Assembly (NCBI GenBank): GCA_045616625.1
Contig: JAZLHA010000002.1
Coordinates: 40,482-104,481 of the forward strand
From: Candidatus Enterousia sp.
Lineage (GTDB): Bacteria > Pseudomonadota > Alphaproteobacteria > Rs-D84
Length of the DNA: 64,000 nt
Reading direction: 5' to 3'
Made by a program: the position numbers and the translations under genes. Positions 28,147 to 30,598 of this stretch are shown piece by piece. The notes below the pieces were generated by a model. The model made no database searches. It was given only the letters and a program-made list of their open reading frames with translations, and was not told where the DNA came from. Within the stretch, counting starts at the first letter, position 1. Every line of letters begins with the position of its first letter.

Positions 28147-28223
28147 AATAAAACCTTTGTTTACAATGCTAGGTATTTTATAGTGGATAGTGTGGTAATT
28201 CAAGTTTTTTTATAAAAATTTCC

Positions 28224-28252
28224 TTTACATATATTTCCAGATTGTATAAAAT
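28224..28252 (+). promoter_or_regulatory. Sigma70-type promoter for the 28472 gene leader
   Basis: TTTACA-N17-TAAAAT. Confidence 0.55.
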
Positions 28253-28280
28253 TTTTGTGTCATGATGAGTTATCATGATG

Positions 28281-28440
28281 GGGTGTAGAAACCCGAACCA
28301 GAGCGTCAAATATTTTCATTGTTTGACGAAAATTCTCCTAATTATGGTTAGGAGGGTTGCGATATATCTGAATAAGCAACACAATTCTCTGGATTGTTTC
28401 TAACCTCCTGACCACTTGATTTTTAATCAGTGGTTTTTGT
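28281..28440 (+). ncRNA. Structured cis-regulatory leader, C4/CI antisense-RNA-like, ending in an intrinsic terminator
   Basis: Pairings TAGAAAC(28286)/GTTTCTA(28396), CCAGAG(28298)/CTCTGG(28387), CGTCAAA/TTTGACG, CTCCTAA/TTAGGAG, GTTGC/GCAAC; alternative TGGTTAGGAGG(28345)/CCTCCTGACCA(28404); terminator stem plus U-tract at 28411-28440. Confidence 0.65.
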
Positions 28441-28471
28441 TTAAAACAAAGAAAAGGGGAGATTTTTTACA

Positions 28472-29383
28472 ATGCGTCGATTGTTGTGTGCTTTTTTAGC
28501 ATTCATATTTTGCACCGTCGCATTGTCCGCCGAATGCCCAATCGGCACCACCCCCGCACAATATATTCAGTTGGAATATATTGAGTCAACCGGAACACAG
28601 TATATTGATACGGGGGTGTTAGCAGAATCTGGAAAAAGTTGGGAAATAGAATTTTCTTTTAGTTCTCTAGTTAATAATGGTTTTATAGGTGCAAGAGTTT
28701 CTAATTTTCGTTTTTGGTTTATTTTATATAGTTCTTACTTTGATTTAGGTTTGGGAGACGACCGTTATATTAGTAGTGTTCCGATTGTGGCGGGTAATAG
28801 GTATAAAAACACACTTGTCACGGATAATAACGGTTGGGTTTCATATATTAATGACATTGAGGTTGCCAAAGGAAACGATGTCGCAACAAAAGAAACTATT
28901 AAAGGTAGTATATATTTATTTAAGATAAATAATGTTTCTGGTTCAGGATATTCTGGTAACTCACGAATATATTATACAAAGATATGGGATGGTGATGCTC
29001 TTATCTACGATTTTATTCCTGTCTTACGTTTAAATGGCGGTAAACCCGGGATGTATGATAAGGTAAGTGGAAGGTTCTTTACAAATCAAGGGACTGGGGA
29101 ATTTATCGCCGGTCCAGAAGTGTCAACAGAATTTATGAATTTTAATAAATGTAATCCTTGTCCGCCGAATACCTATAAAGATTTTGTTGGGAACGGCGAA
29201 TGCACACCATGTCCGGATGCGTTGATATCGCCGTCGGGGTCAAAAAGTGTGTCTGAATGTGGACGCGTTCTGCATATTGGCGATAAAATATATCATATGA
29301 AGTCTGTTAAACAGACATCCCCCGCATTACATATTCGCGATGAAAACGGAAATGTTTGGTACGGCAACCTATATTCAGAATAA
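28472..29383 (+). CDS. Secreted chimeric protein: phage-tail-like ConA/LamG lectin fold + Eph-receptor-like Cys repeat + short C-terminal beta domain
   Basis: Signal peptide; LEYIESTGTQYIDTG…RIYYTKIWD…DFIPV…GMYDKVSGRFFTNQGTGEF; CNPCPPNTYK…ECTPCP…GSKSVSEC. Confidence 0.8.
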   Translation: MRRLLCAFLAFIFCTVALSAECPIGTTPAQYIQLEYIESTGTQYIDTGVLAESGKSWEIEFSFSSLVNNGFIGARVSNFRFWFILYSSYFDLGLGDDRYISSVPIVAGNRYKNTLVTDNNGWVSYINDIEVAKGNDVATKETIKGSIYLFKINNVSGSGYSGNSRIYYTKIWDGDALIYDFIPVLRLNGGKPGMYDKVSGRFFTNQGTGEFIAGPEVSTEFMNFNKCNPCPPNTYKDFVGNGECTPCPDALISPSGSKSVSECGRVLHIGDKIYHMKSVKQTSPALHIRDENGNVWYGNLYSE

Positions 29384-29596
29384 GAAATAATAAAAAAACC
29401 GCGGAATTCTGCGGGTTGGGGCGTAAAATAGCTGTTTTTTAGTAAAAAATCAGAAAATTACGAATTTTGGTGTAAAAATGCACTAAAAACAGTGTGTTGT
29501 GTAATATTATGGGTCTGTGGCGGAAAATGATGAAAATAGGGCTTAAAACCGCCAAAGCCTATAAAACGCAAGGTGTTGCGGTGAAATGATTTACAG

Positions 29597-29675
29597 TATA
29601 AAATTTATAAAAATTTGAATAAAAAATAAATTTTTTTAGAAAAATTTTTTATTAGAAATTTTTATAAATTTTATA
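29597..29675. repeat. AT-only long inverted repeat (potential cruciform)
   Basis: Perfect 20-bp arms (29597-29616 / 29656-29675) plus inner 10-bp arms (29618-29627 / 29644-29653). Confidence 0.85.
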
Positions 29676-29811
29676 TTTTTTTCGGAAAAAATTATTTTTC
29701 TGCGCACAAACACACAAAACAAAAACAATTTTATATTGCAAATAATATGTCATTTTGCGAAAAGCATAAAAACATTAAAAACCCACTAAATGCTATATTA
29801 CCAATAATCTA

Positions 29812-29839
29812 ACTATACATAATATACATTATGCGCCTT
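29812..29839 (-). other. dif: dif site (XerC/XerD chromosome dimer resolution)
   Basis: Minus strand AAGGCGCATAA-TGTATA-TTATGTATAGT versus E. coli GGTGCGCATAA-TGTATA-TTATGTTAAAT; intergenic, between convergent genes. Confidence 0.88.
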
Positions 29840-30004
29840 TTGTATGTTGTGTGCCCCGTCGGTATGGGTGGAGTTGATTCTGAATAGGAAAATATCTGAA
29901 ACGCCCAGAAATCTGGGAATAAGTTATATAAAATATACTATTATAAGTGGTGGTTTTTAGAAATATAATCTGCGTAATTTTAGCAAATAAATAATAAAAA
30001 ATTA

Positions 30005-30043
30005 TGGCGACACCCCTATTTTATATAATATAAAGGTGTCGCC
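30005..30043 (-). terminator. Hairpin downstream of mscL
   Basis: GGCGACACC…GGTGTCGCC arms with an A-run on the plus strand to the left. Confidence 0.7.
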
Positions 30044-30049
30044 CTGTTG

Positions 30050-30598
30050 TTATTTAACAACTTTTGTTAATTTTTTGACGCTTTTCTTAGCAATCTTGGT
30101 CAAATTCTTGATGCCTTTCTTTAAATCGCTTTCTTCGGCGGCGATAACTTTACCTGCTTTTACTGCTGAACAGCAATATGGGCATTTTGTTGCTTCTACG
30201 CTAATTGTTGATTTGCAGTATGGGCAAGCGTGTGTTGTGATGGCTTGTTTGTCGCGTGTTTTGTTAACAATTTTGACGAACAAGAATACTGCAAACATTG
30301 TAATCAAGAAACTAACCACAGAATTCATAAATACGCCCAAATTCATTGTGGTTGCGCCCGCAGCGTTTGCCGCTGCAACTGTTGTATAATGAACGCCCGG
30401 TTCGCCACCCGCCAAAACAATGAATAATGTAGAAAAATCAACGCCACCGATAAGCAATCCAATTGGTGGCATTAAAACGTCAGCAACCAATGAATTAACA
30501 ACACCGGTCATAACACTACCTACGATGATACCGACAGCCATGTCGATTGCATTACCGCGATATATAAATGATTTAAATTCTTTTAATAAATTAGCCAT
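30050..30598 (-). CDS. mscL: Large-conductance mechanosensitive channel with C-terminal Zn-ribbon and basic tail
   Basis: LLKEFKSFIYRGNAIDMAVGIIVG, MPPIG, NLGVFMNSVVSFLI; CPYC…CPYC. Confidence 0.93.
   Translation of the reverse strand: MANLLKEFKSFIYRGNAIDMAVGIIVGSVMTGVVNSLVADVLMPPIGLLIGGVDFSTLFIVLAGGEPGVHYTTVAAANAAGATTMNLGVFMNSVVSFLITMFAVFLFVKIVNKTRDKQAITTHACPYCKSTISVEATKCPYCCSAVKAGKVIAAEESDLKKGIKNLTKIAKKSVKKLTKVVK

What the first reader, a model, noticed from the sequence alone, without database searches (positions are those of the whole stretch)
28472..29383. Chimeric secreted protein: phage-tail lectin fold + eukaryote-type Cys repeat, next to dif
Seen: signal peptide; a domain bounded by LEYIESTGTQYIDTG and GMYDKVSGRFFTNQGTGEF, which I recognise from gut-phage tail/ConA-like proteins; then CNPCPPNTYK…CTPCP…SGSKSVSEC, matching the Ephrin_rec_like/GCC2-GCC3 pattern typical of eukaryotic surface proteins; then a ~40-aa beta tail (LHIGD…KQTSPALHI…WYGNL), a candidate lineage-specific sorting or anchoring signal. 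With the C4-like leader and dif nearby, it may be a relic of a Xer-integrated element turned adhesin (inference).
Basis: partly seen in the sequence, partly recalled or inferred. Interest (0 to 1): 0.62.

Follow-up and report, generated by a model that had tools for sequence, protein, structure and literature searches.

The report
Switch-controlled secreted lectin with lineage-specific tail
A tiny-genome gut bacterium, probably Candidatus Enterousia, encodes a secreted lectin-type protein made of a phage-tail-like binding domain, a cysteine repeat and a C-terminal module shared by many of its surface proteins, preceded by an undescribed folded RNA switch; its position beside the chromosome's dif site is incidental.

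Summary
ORF 28472-29383 (+) encodes a 303-aa protein with four parts: a signal peptide, a 190-aa domain framed by LEYIESTGTQYIDTG and GMYDKVSGRFFTNQGTGEF, one PF07699 Cys repeat (34.3 bits, cutoff 23.1) and a 40-aa beta tail. A canonical dif site lies 428 nt downstream.

- **N-domain:** it models confidently as a LamG/pentraxin/ConA-like jelly roll. Its closest relatives are gut-phage proteins, and 141 IMG/VR contigs encode it, in the two loci inspected within tail-gene modules.
- **Tail:** together with the Cys repeat, it is a lineage-restricted C-terminal module. It occurs in 8 proteins of this 814-kb genome and in 535 protein clusters. It lies within 60 aa of the C-terminus in 146 of the best 150, on proteins of 79-5,094 aa. 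It is confined to one bacterial family and has no Pfam, NCBIfam or PDB match.
- **Not supported:** the Xer-element idea (no second dif-like site, normal GC, paralogs elsewhere), the "C4-like" label (no Rfam match) and a recent eukaryotic graft (PF07699 is endemic to this order).
- **Leader:** the upstream leader (28252-28446) belongs to a multi-copy structured RNA family absent from Rfam. It is found in 114 of 121 genus genomes, shows strong covariation and has a covarying alternative helix.

Best reading: a variable secreted lectin-like adhesin. The common handle serves surface attachment or export, and a terminator-type RNA switch gates expression.

The parts
28224..28252 (+). Sigma-70-like promoter (TTTACA, 17-nt spacer, TAAAAT) directly in front of the leader RNA
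   Evidence: Consensus scan, 10 of 12 matches. Similar CTTTACA...TATAAT boxes can be seen by eye upstream of three paralog leaders. Consensus match only.
28252..28446 (+). Structured leader RNA: P1 hairpin, a long two-part closing helix around three hairpins (one with the conserved loop GAAUAUAAAGAAUA), then a terminator. Member of a multi-copy family absent from Rfam.
   Evidence: Covariance model R1 match at 63.2 bits, E 3.9e-14, full length. RNAfold z = -4.6. The same MFE architecture appears in 5 own-genome copies. On 43 sequences: 95.1% of cells paired, 45 of 54 pairs with changes on both sides, covariation 0.674 against 0.184 in shuffles. No Rfam hit.
28335..28354 (+). P4 hairpin CTCCTAA-TTAT-GGTTAGGAG. 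Its 3' arm has an alternative partner at 28404-28413.
   Evidence: helix 5, 98.8% paired. Alternative pairing tested.
28404..28413 (+). CCTCCTGACC: alternative partner of the P4 3' arm. It spans the 3' end of the closing helix, the linker and the first bases of the terminator stem.
   Evidence: Alternative helix: 96.7% paired, 5 of 9 pairs with changes on both sides, covariation 0.186 against 0.058 (0 of 500 shuffles). The alignment was not fitted to this helix. Three-way covariation is visible.
28412..28438 (+). Intrinsic-terminator-like hairpin CCACTTGA-TTTTTA-ATCAGTGG followed by TTTTT, about 33 nt before the ATG
   Evidence: Sequence. Helix 7 of the family covaries (7 of 8 pairs).
28456..28461 (+). 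Shine-Dalgarno-like GGGGAG, 10 nt before the ATG
   Evidence: Sequence. GGGGGAG/GGGGGG sits at the same place in the paralogs.
28472..29383 (+). CDS of the 303-aa secreted protein (P0001)
28472..28531 (+). Signal peptide (aa 1-20, predicted cleavage ALSA|EC), followed by the conserved CP.G motif with a lone Cys22
   Evidence: Sequence features and AF2 helix 2-14. An equivalent N-terminus is present in the homologs. Inferred, not run through SignalP.
28544..29119 (+). LamG/pentraxin/ConA-like jelly-roll domain (aa ~25-216) with conserved first and last strands and a hypervariable centre
   Evidence: AF2 pLDDT 89-98. Foldseek PDB and BFVD. 141 viral and 356 genomic loci. No Pfam, PHROG or NCBIfam hit.
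29141..29260 (+). PF07699 Ephrin_rec_like / TNFR-like Cys repeat (aa 224-263, five Cys)
   Evidence: 34.3 bits against cutoff 23.1. pLDDT about 92.
29261..29380 (+). 40-aa beta tail, short form (GRVLHIGDKIYHM...ALHIRDENGNVWYGNLYSE). Together with the Cys repeat it forms the lineage-specific C-terminal module.
   Evidence: Tail HMM hits 8 own proteins at E 1e-17 to 1e-22, next hit E 0.43. 535 clusters. C-terminal position. Confined to one family of the order. The long form models at pLDDT 93-98 with no PDB match.
29812..29839 (-). Chromosomal dif site AAGGCGCATAATGTATATTATGTATAGT. A neighbour of the gene, not part of it.
   Evidence: Exact 20-mer core, unique in the window. One copy in 25 of 26 genus genomes. 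Conserved AroK-MscL-dif-[slot]-LeuRS gene order.

Best explanation
The gene encodes a Sec-exported, disulfide-stabilised, lectin-type binding protein of a small-genome gut alphaproteobacterium that is thought to depend on partner cells (Enterousia-like). It has three working parts. (1) A LamG/ConA-like jelly roll homologous to receptor-binding modules of gut-phage tail proteins. Its conserved first and last strands form the scaffold, and its hypervariable centre is the likely ligand-binding face. (2) A TNFR/ephrin-type Cys repeat acting as a rigid spacer. (3) A short beta tail that, together with the Cys repeat, forms a lineage-specific C-terminal module. The same module ends unrelated passenger proteins: five LamG paralogs, two giant InlB-repeat adhesin-like proteins and one small Cys-rich protein. 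The module is therefore most likely a common handle that attaches these proteins to the cell surface or presents them to a shared export or partner component. The protein would then act as one member of a variable adhesin repertoire for binding glycans or surfaces of partner or host cells. Expression is gated by a promoter-proximal structured RNA leader that ends in an intrinsic terminator and has a covarying alternative helix, so it acts as a transcription-attenuation switch whose signal is unknown. Shown: the domain architecture, the fold prediction, the phage homology, the recurrence, C-terminal position and taxonomic restriction of the module, and the structure and covariation of the leader. 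Inferred: secretion, ligand binding, the anchoring or export role of the module, and the regulatory outcome of the switch.
For: Architecture and PF07699. Fold: AF2 pLDDT 87.8; LamG/pentraxin hits and the Bacteroides ovatus putative carbohydrate-binding protein 4dqa. Phage relatives: BFVD E 4.9e-15. 141 IMG/VR contigs encode the domain; in L024 it lies between the tape-measure and tail genes and the tail-fibre gene. Family size and variability: 1,201 hits with conserved edges only. The four other paralogs have 85-96% identical 5' and 3' ends around middles that are 13-50% identical. Module: 8 own proteins on different passengers, including Flg_new adhesin-like giants. 535 clusters; 146 of the best 150 end within 60 aa of the C-terminus, on proteins of 79-5,094 aa. 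Present in 145 of 201 genomes of the order, all from one family. The long form is a confident compact fold (pLDDT 93-98) with no PDB match. Lifestyle context: PMC12306168. Organism names. Leader. About 17 of 28 downstream ORFs in other genomes have signal peptides.
Against: No ligand-binding residues could be identified, and LamG folds also occur in non-lectin proteins. The module is internal in a few proteins; for example it is followed by an Endonuclease I domain in the 2,830-aa protein. That argues against a strict C-terminal signal, though it fits a folded handle. No partner or dedicated transporter is encoded beside module-bearing genes. The tail of this particular protein is the truncated short form and models less confidently (pLDDT 58-79). 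The alternative helix overlaps the terminator stem by only 1-2 bases, so how it controls termination is unclear. The leader also precedes some non-secreted genes and occurs in ORF-less tandem arrays.
Confidence: 0.58

Rival explanations
1. The C-terminal module is mainly an export signal recognised by an outer-membrane translocon (for example one of the two Slam/T11SS homologs, or the single secretin system of this genome) and not a surface anchor. The proteins would then be released or handed across the outer membrane.
For: The module has a strict C-terminal bias on very different passengers. The genome encodes two SlipAM (PF04575) proteins and one secretin. All module proteins have Sec signal peptides.
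Against: Known Slam cargo uses an 8-stranded C-terminal barrel and is usually encoded next to its Slam. Here the module is a Cys-rich domain plus hairpins, and the genes are not adjacent to a Slam. The module is internal in some proteins. No NCBIfam or Pfam sorting-domain model matches.
Confidence: 0.2
2. The module is an oligomerisation or fibre-forming element, like the C-terminal parts of phage fibres or the Ephrin_rec_like arrays of mastigonemes. It would raise lectin avidity and have no addressing role.
For: The N-domain relatives sit in phage tail proteins. There is a weak sequence resemblance to the mastigoneme protein Mst1 (E 0.41). The long form has a DxDxDG-type calcium-loop motif.
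Against: The PDB matches are not significant. No multimer modelling was possible. The module also caps 100-200-aa proteins that have no obvious binding domain.
Confidence: 0.14
3. The gene is a relic of a phage or other element integrated at dif by Xer recombination (an IMEX) and later domesticated as an adhesin.
For: The gene lies 428 nt from a genuine dif. The N-domain has phage relatives. The dif-LeuRS slot differs between species.
Against: No second dif-like site exists within 3 mismatches in the window, or within 6 mismatches across about +/-3.5 kb. The flanking genes are housekeeping (LeuRS, MscL, AroK, RF1). Gene GC is 37.8%, the same as the genome. No hit in the phage genome collection. 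Four paralogs with the same leader sit on other contigs. In G013 the same slot holds the same leader with a different cargo, so the mobile unit is the leader cassette.
Confidence: 0.04
4. The jelly roll is an enzyme (a GH16-like glucanase or other ConA-fold hydrolase) and not a binding domain.
For: The ConA-like lectin/glucanase superfamily includes GH16, GH7 and related enzymes. One BFVD relative is fused to a GDSL lipase.
Against: No Pfam or NCBIfam glycoside-hydrolase match even at E<=10. No ExDxxE-type motif can be seen in the sequence. The best structural matches are LamG, pentraxin and carbohydrate-binding modules. The centre of the domain is hypervariable, which is unlike an active site.
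Confidence: 0.04

Closest known systems
LamG / LNS / pentraxin and ConA-like carbohydrate-binding modules (e.g. neurexin LNS2 2h0b, serum amyloid P 1sac, BACOVA_03559 4dqa)
   Same: The predicted fold is the same two-sheet jelly roll (Foldseek probability 1.0, TM to target 0.5-0.6). Like them it is extracellular, and a binding role is expected.
   Different: Sequence identity is only 8-17%, and there is no Pfam LamG match. A calcium or ligand site could not be assigned. The characteristic edge motifs LEYIESTGTQYIDTG and GMYD..G.FF.N.GTG.F define a separate family that has no model in the Pfam, PHROGs or NCBIfam copies searched.
Gut-phage tail-module proteins carrying the same domain (e.g. Siphoviridae sp. 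ctEqU3 A0A8S5P150; IMG/VR loci L019-L098)
   Same: True homologs of the N-domain: 26-38% identity over the full domain and rmsd 2.6 A. In the two loci inspected they lie among tail genes, as expected for receptor-binding modules.
   Different: The window gene is chromosomal with no phage neighbours. It has a Sec signal peptide and carries the Cys repeat plus tail module and the RNA leader. The phage proteins are 600-1,000 aa and embed the domain internally.
Ephrin_rec_like / GCC2_GCC3 (PF07699) and TNFR-type Cys-rich repeats
   Same: The match is above the curated cutoff, with the C-x2-C...C-x2-C...C pattern. TNFR Cys-rich domains are the only, weak, PDB resemblance of the module.
   Different: Here it is a bacterial building block endemic to one order. 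It occurs as a single copy fused to a beta tail that has no solved or catalogued relative.
C-terminal addressing or anchoring modules on diverse passengers: T9SS C-terminal domain, dockerin, Slam/T11SS cargo barrel, PEP-CTERM and LPXTG
   Same: The logic is the same: one conserved C-terminal module on many unrelated secreted proteins, restricted to one lineage. The long form carries a DxDxDG calcium-loop motif reminiscent of dockerins.
   Different: There is no sequence or fold match to any of them. There is no transmembrane helix or sortase-type motif. It is not a barrel. The cognate machinery or partner is unknown, and the module is occasionally internal.
Multigene variable surface-protein families with conserved ends (e.g. 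Mycoplasma variable lipoproteins; Neisseria Slam-dependent lipoproteins)
   Same: Several paralogs have near-identical 5' and 3' ends and hypervariable middles. Each has its own upstream control element.
   Different: Control is by a structured terminator-type RNA leader, not by an invertible promoter or a repeat tract. The window copy is itself a divergent member with a different tail type.
Terminator-type riboswitches and attenuator leaders; C4 antisense RNA (RF01695) and sRNA-Xcc1 (RF02221) as named earlier
   Same: The layout is a promoter-proximal structured domain, a terminator and a mutually exclusive helix.
   Different: No Rfam family matches, even at E<=10. There are tens of copies per ~0.9-Mb genome, and ORF-less tandem arrays exist. 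The ligand or factor is unknown.

Membership tests
LamG / ConA-like lectin-glucanase superfamily (fold level) | Two-sheet beta-sandwich jelly roll of about 180-200 aa | tested here: met
   AF2 pLDDT 89-98 over aa 25-216. 97 PDB hits at E<=1e-3, led by LNS/LG, pentraxin and carbohydrate-binding structures.
LamG / ConA-like lectin-glucanase superfamily (fold level) | Sequence match to a Pfam LamG-type model (Laminin_G_1/2/3 and similar) | tested here: not met
   No such family at E<=10 in Pfam. None in NCBIfam or PHROGs.
LamG / ConA-like lectin-glucanase superfamily (fold level) | Calcium or ligand-binding site on the rim of the sandwich | not testable with these tools
PF07699 Ephrin_rec_like | HMM score above the curated gathering threshold | tested here: met
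   34.3 bits against 23.1, residues 224-263, profile positions 8-48 of 48.
PF07699 Ephrin_rec_like | Disulfide connectivity of the Cys repeat | not testable with these tools
   The repeat has five Cys, and there is a lone Cys22 near the mature N-terminus. Any pairing is inference only.
Phage tail receptor-binding proteins sharing the N-domain | Homologous domain encoded in viral contigs within tail-gene modules | tested here: met
   141 IMG/VR contigs. L024: tape measure, tail protein, domain-bearing ORF, tail fibre. L021: followed by a tail assembly chaperone.
Phage tail receptor-binding proteins sharing the N-domain | The gene itself lies in a prophage or phage context | tested here: not met
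   The neighbours are LeuRS, MscL, AroK and RF1. No tblastn hit in 50,697 phage records.
Known C-terminal sorting or anchor domains (T9SS CTD, PEP-CTERM, LPXTG, GlyGly-CTERM, autotransporter, Slam cargo barrel, dockerin) | Conserved module at the C-terminus of many unrelated secreted proteins in one lineage | tested here: met
   8 own proteins. 146 of the best 150 representatives end within 60 aa of the C-terminus. Restricted to one family of the order.
Known C-terminal sorting or anchor domains (T9SS CTD, PEP-CTERM, LPXTG, GlyGly-CTERM, autotransporter, Slam cargo barrel, dockerin) | Match to a catalogued sorting-domain model or fold; a transmembrane helix plus motif for the sortase and exosortase types | tested here: not met
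   No Pfam or NCBIfam hit on the tail. No PDB fold match. No hydrophobic helix in the tail sequence.
Known C-terminal sorting or anchor domains (T9SS CTD, PEP-CTERM, LPXTG, GlyGly-CTERM, autotransporter, Slam cargo barrel, dockerin) | Cognate machinery or partner identified | tested here: inconclusive
   A secretin and two SlipAM genes exist, but they are not linked to module genes. No co-occurrence analysis was done.
IMEX (element integrated at dif by XerCD) | Element bounded by dif and a second dif-like site | tested here: not met
   Only one site within 3 mismatches in 64 kb. Nothing convincing within 6 mismatches across about +/-3.5 kb.
IMEX (element integrated at dif by XerCD) | Foreign composition or element genes | tested here: not met
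   Gene GC is 37.8% against a genome value of 36-41%. There are no mobile-element genes nearby.
C4 antisense RNA (Rfam RF01695) / sRNA-Xcc1 (RF02221) | Covariance-model match | tested here: not met
   cmscan of 28150-30100 at E<=10 lists neither family. The gathering-threshold scan of the window shows only RNase P and tRNAs.
Terminator-type cis-regulatory RNA switch (riboswitch or attenuator class) | Conserved structure supported by covariation, a 3' intrinsic terminator and a mutually exclusive alternative helix | tested here: met
   (0 of 500 shuffles reach the observed values; slid controls are far lower).
Terminator-type cis-regulatory RNA switch (riboswitch or attenuator class) | Identified ligand or factor, and demonstrated conditional termination | not testable with these tools

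The most novel reading that the evidence does not exclude
The Cys-repeat plus beta-tail module would be the address tag of an undescribed surface-display system confined to one family of small-genome gut Alphaproteobacteria. In function it would parallel the T9SS C-terminal domain or a dockerin, with an unknown receptor or translocon. The ~190-nt leader would be a new class of signal-sensing RNA switch. Together they would define a programmable, recombining repertoire of lectin-like adhesins, built partly from phage receptor-binding domains, that these metabolically dependent bacteria use to attach to partner cells.
Probability: 0.3. Interest if true: 0.8.

Novelty: new variant of a known kind. 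Interest (0 to 1): 0.58.

Why it matters
Enterousia-like bacteria (order Rs-D84) are widespread in animal guts. They have genomes under 1 Mb without basic biosynthesis and are thought to live off other cells, but how they attach to partners is unknown (PMC12306168). This gene shows three reusable parts of their surface toolkit:

- a binding domain shared with gut-phage tail proteins and many gut Firmicutes, which points to exchange of receptor-binding modules between phages and bacteria;
- a lineage-specific C-terminal handle that marks a whole set of surface proteins, giving a direct way to list the surface proteome and to search for its receptor or exporter;
- an abundant structured RNA switch, absent from Rfam, in front of these genes.

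Each part leads to concrete experiments. The protein as such is an ordinary kind of thing, a secreted lectin-like adhesin. The module and the leader are the new elements.

Tried and rejected
- **Family libraries:** PHROGs and NCBIfam gave nothing for the protein.
- **PDB by sequence:** only non-significant hits to ephrin receptor, TNFR and mastigoneme proteins.
- **Phage genome collection:** tblastn found no match. The phage link emerged only through BFVD structures and IMG/VR.
- **Genome contigs:** the single-protein scan found nothing. The N-domain alignment worked.
- **IMEX:** rejected after dif-like searches.
- **C4 RNA:** rejected by Rfam.
- **GC skew:** it does not flip at dif. The sign change on contig C2 is near 115 kb, about 45 kb away, so skew gives no support for a terminus-linked story.
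- **Dedicated transporter:** none found next to module-bearing genes; the neighbours are housekeeping.
- **Leader alignment:** MAFFT misplaced the variable hairpins. This was solved by seeding a covariance model from a single copy.
- **Fold of the long-form module:** no PDB match.
- **Python box:** loci from other genomes were not available there at first.
Full report
**1. The observation**

The window holds an ORF at 28472-29383 (+) encoding 303 aa. It starts with a typical Sec-type N-terminus, MRRLLCAFLAFIFCTVALSA|ECP, which AlphaFold2 models as a helix over residues 2-14. No signal-peptide predictor was available, so export is inferred. Pfam places PF07699 (Ephrin_rec_like) on residues 224-263 at 34.3 bits, above the curated cutoff of 23.1. 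The last 40 residues are as quoted. PHROGs and NCBIfam recognise nothing.

The neighbours are housekeeping genes: LeuRS on the left; MscL, shikimate kinase and RF1 on the right.

A canonical dif core, GCGCATAATGTATATTATGT, lies at 29817-29836 on the minus strand, 428 nt after the stop codon. It is unique in the window, with 0.02 matches expected by chance. It is present once in 25 of 26 genomes of the genus, so it is the chromosomal dif.

**2. The organism**

The assembly is 814 kb in 14 contigs, 96% complete and about 38% GC. The genus has more than 150 species-level genomes of 0.6-1.1 Mb. Named relatives that carry the same protein family are Candidatus Enterousia and 'Alphaproteobacteria bacterium' MAGs from rumen and horse faeces.

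This fits order Rs-D84 / Ca. Enterousia. That lineage is described as fermentative, lacking amino-acid, nucleotide and lipid synthesis, and probably dependent on other cells (PMC12306168). The assignment is an inference from these matches.

**3. The N-terminal domain**

An AlphaFold2 model built on 69 homologs is confident, with mean pLDDT 87.8 and values of 89-98 across residues 25-216. Foldseek against the PDB returns LamG/LNS domains, pentraxins and a Bacteroides ovatus putative carbohydrate-binding protein. Probability is 1.0, TM to target is 0.5-0.6, and identity is only 8-17%. No Pfam LamG model matches, so LamG/ConA-like is a fold-level assignment.

Against predicted viral structures the matches are much closer. 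The best is an uncharacterised protein of Siphoviridae sp. ctEqU3 at E 4.9e-15, 28% identity and rmsd 2.6 A, followed by other human-gut virome phages.

A scan of IMG/VR with an N-domain alignment found 141 viral contigs that encode the whole domain at 26-38% identity. In L024 the domain-bearing 791-aa ORF lies between the tape-measure and tail genes and a tail-fibre gene. In L021 it is followed by a tail assembly chaperone.

The domain is also common in cellular genomes, with 356 stretches in species-representative genomes. It is abundant in Enterousia but also occurs in Eubacteriales, Oscillospiraceae, Erysipelotrichaceae, Ca. Onthoplasma, Christensenella, Bacilli and Lentisphaerae. Only the first and last strands are conserved, and the centre is hypervariable.

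**4. The Cys repeat**

PF07699 is named after eukaryotic receptors, but in this order it is a native building block. It occurs in 30 of 41 genomes across five genera, with up to 26 hits in a ~1-Mb genome. None of 14 control genomes has it. The protein is modular, not a recent bacterial-eukaryotic chimera.

**5. The tail**

An HMM of the tail alone, searched against all six-frame ORFs of the genome, hits exactly eight proteins at E 1e-17 to 1e-22, and the next hit has E 0.43. In all eight the tail follows a Cys repeat directly. The eight proteins are:

- five LamG-type paralogs;
- two giant proteins of 2,830 and 2,257 aa, rich in InlB-B (Flg_new) repeats;
- a 240-aa Cys-rich protein.

A profile of the module found 535 clusters among 1.84 billion representatives. 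In the best 150, the module ends 0-6 aa from the C-terminus in 34 cases and 21-40 aa from it in 107 cases. It ends more than 60 aa from the C-terminus in only 4. The host proteins range from 79 to 5,094 aa.

There are two forms:

- **Long form.** It adds a DxDxDG-type loop (D[IV]DNDGVAD[FY]FGN) and a final hairpin (...YS[VI]YDD).
- **Short form.** This is what the window protein carries, with a degenerate loop (RDENGNV).

The long form, modelled on the 240-aa paralog, is a compact domain with pLDDT 93-98. It has no significant PDB match; only TNFR Cys-rich domains appear, at E about 1.

The module is present in 145 of 201 genomes of the order, all from one family, and in about 90% of the window's genus, at 1-12 copies per genome. 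It is therefore a lineage-restricted C-terminal module on diverse secreted passengers, which is how addressing or anchoring domains behave.

It lacks a hydrophobic helix or a sortase-type motif. It matches no catalogued sorting domain. In a few proteins it is internal; in the 2,830-aa protein it is followed by an Endonuclease I domain. The genes next to module-bearing genes are housekeeping. The genome does encode one secretin and two Slam/SlipAM homologs, but no link to them was shown.

**6. Gene-family dynamics**

The other four LamG paralogs share 85-96% identical DNA over about 70 nt upstream plus the signal peptide, and over the last ~240 nt. Their middles are only 13-50% identical. This pattern fits exchange of binding heads between conserved ends. 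The window copy is the outlier, at about 50% identity throughout and with the other tail type. Its GC content is ordinary at 37.8%.

**7. The Xer idea**

Gene order around dif is conserved as RF1...AroK-MscL-dif-[slot]-LeuRS, but the slot varies. It is empty in G002, holds a TlyA-like methyltransferase in G003, and holds two small Cys-rich secreted proteins in G013.

There is no second dif-like site, no mobile-element gene, and no match in the phage genome collection. In G013 the slot contains the same RNA leader in the same orientation, driving a different cargo. The variable unit is therefore a leader-headed surface-protein cassette, copies of which lie all over the genome. Proximity to dif is incidental. 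GC skew does not flip at dif.

**8. The leader**

This was followed up because the finding invokes it. Rfam finds no C4 RNA or any other family here, even at E<=10. Yet the 218 nt before the ATG fold far better than shuffles (z = -4.6).

All five LamG paralogs carry the same architecture, and each reaches it on its own by MFE:

- a promoter-like box;
- a P1 hairpin;
- a long two-part closing helix around three hairpins, one with the conserved loop GAAUAUAAAGAAUA;
- a terminator with a U-run, 20-35 nt before the Shine-Dalgarno sequence.

A covariance model seeded from one copy finds full-length matches in 114 of 121 genomes of the genus. Counts often reach the 21-candidate scoring cap. The own genome has ten copies.

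On 43 sequences, 95.1% of cells pair, against 69.1% in shuffles and 33-45% in slid controls. 45 of 54 pairs change on both sides. The covariation score is 0.674 against 0.184, with 0 of 500 shuffles reaching it. That alignment is fitted to the model, which favours the structure.

An alternative helix that was not in the model joins the 3' arm of P4 to the segment CCUCC-AACC, which bridges the closing helix and the terminator. It is 96.7% paired, and 5 of 9 pairs show changes on both sides (0 of 500 shuffles). Three-way covariation is visible: GGUU/AACC becomes GUCA/UGAC or GGUA/UGCC. This supports a two-state switch. How it couples to the terminator is unclear, because it overlaps the terminator stem by only 1-2 bases.

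In the own genome the leader precedes the following:

- the five LamG genes;
- an OMP-like gene;
- a 677-aa Cys/LRR/InlB-repeat protein;
- the two-gene unit that ends with the 240-aa module protein;
- two non-secreted ORFs.

In 28 loci from other genomes, about 17 downstream ORFs have signal peptides and most of those are Cys-rich. This was judged with a simple heuristic and by eye. Six are small XRE-like HTH proteins, and two are a conserved ~385-aa protein. ORF-less tandem arrays exist, such as five copies at a ~240-nt period in L205, so the element can also stand alone.

Outside the genus it occurs at 1-2 copies in four other genera of small-genome Alphaproteobacteria. In the three loci read there, it precedes a small lipoprotein gene and two pilin-like Cys-rich protein genes. 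Earlier notes of this scan on other genomes describe the same leader family and similar swappable lectin genes. They agree with this reading but are not independent evidence.

**9. Verdict**

It is wrong on the Xer relic and the C4 label.

The most likely function is a secreted, variable, lectin-like adhesin. It is displayed or exported through a lineage-specific C-terminal handle and gated by a terminator-type RNA switch. Binding, localisation, the role of the module and the signal sensed by the switch are all inferred.

Noticed in passing
window 28252-28446 (+); also G000 C13:80628-80821, C5:52363-52549, C11:7712-7894, C12:5632-5837, C1:31845-32035, C1:8855-9059, C2:114508-114701, C13:40233-40424, C14:18365-18543: A ~190-nt structured RNA family absent from Rfam. 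It has seven covarying helices plus a covarying alternative helix. It occurs at 10 copies here and is found in 114 of 121 genus genomes, often at 20 or more copies. It sits mostly in front of secreted or surface-protein genes.
   Followed up: yes
L205:1265-2405 (five copies, ~240-nt period); L215:183-604; L199:1501-1925: Tandem arrays of the leader element with no room for ORFs between copies. The last copy is followed by a small XRE-like HTH gene. This suggests the element can also act as a free-standing small RNA, or that cargo genes have been lost between copies.
   Followed up: partly
G000 C2:130481-138970 (-), outside the window (L099:4479-12971): A 2,830-aa secreted protein with InlB-B (Flg_new) and Ephrin_rec_like repeats. 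The C-terminal module is followed by an Endonuclease I (PF04231) domain. It may be a surface-tethered nuclease, and it is one of the few cases where the module is internal.
   Followed up: partly
window 29384-30049: A 660-nt gene-free, very AT-rich region around dif. It includes a long A/T palindrome near 29597-29675, also flagged in note e1-5214036. Its function is unknown.
   Followed up: no
G000 contig C2 (window = C2:40482-104481): GC skew does not change sign at dif (C2:70.3 kb). The switch from positive to negative skew is near C2:115 kb, about 45 kb away.
   Followed up: partly
window 30050-30598 (-): The MscL homolog carries a C-terminal extension with two CxxC pairs. It gives a weak Zn_ribbon_3 match below the Pfam cutoff, and the extension is conserved in relatives (L011-L013).
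   Followed up: no
L217:530-1957 (+) and L218:2095-3483 (-): In other small-genome Alphaproteobacteria the same leader precedes genes for proteins with a prepilin-like N-terminus (GRSMVEMLGVLAIIGVL) and Cys-rich ectodomains. By eye, one of them has a Hint-like C-terminal part.
   Followed up: no
order-wide: PF07699 Ephrin_rec_like repeats are expanded across this order, with up to 26 hits in a ~1-Mb genome, and are absent from 14 standard control genomes. This is a marked enrichment of a 'eukaryote-type' Cys repeat in a bacterial lineage.
   Followed up: partly
G000 C12, C13, C11, C5 paralogs (L102-L105): The annotated-looking ATG starts of the type-B paralogs are probably wrong. A GGGGGAG/GGGGGG Shine-Dalgarno sequence is followed 7 nt later by GTG or TTG, giving the better signal peptides MKRLLVF... 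and MRRFLCVF...
   Followed up: partly
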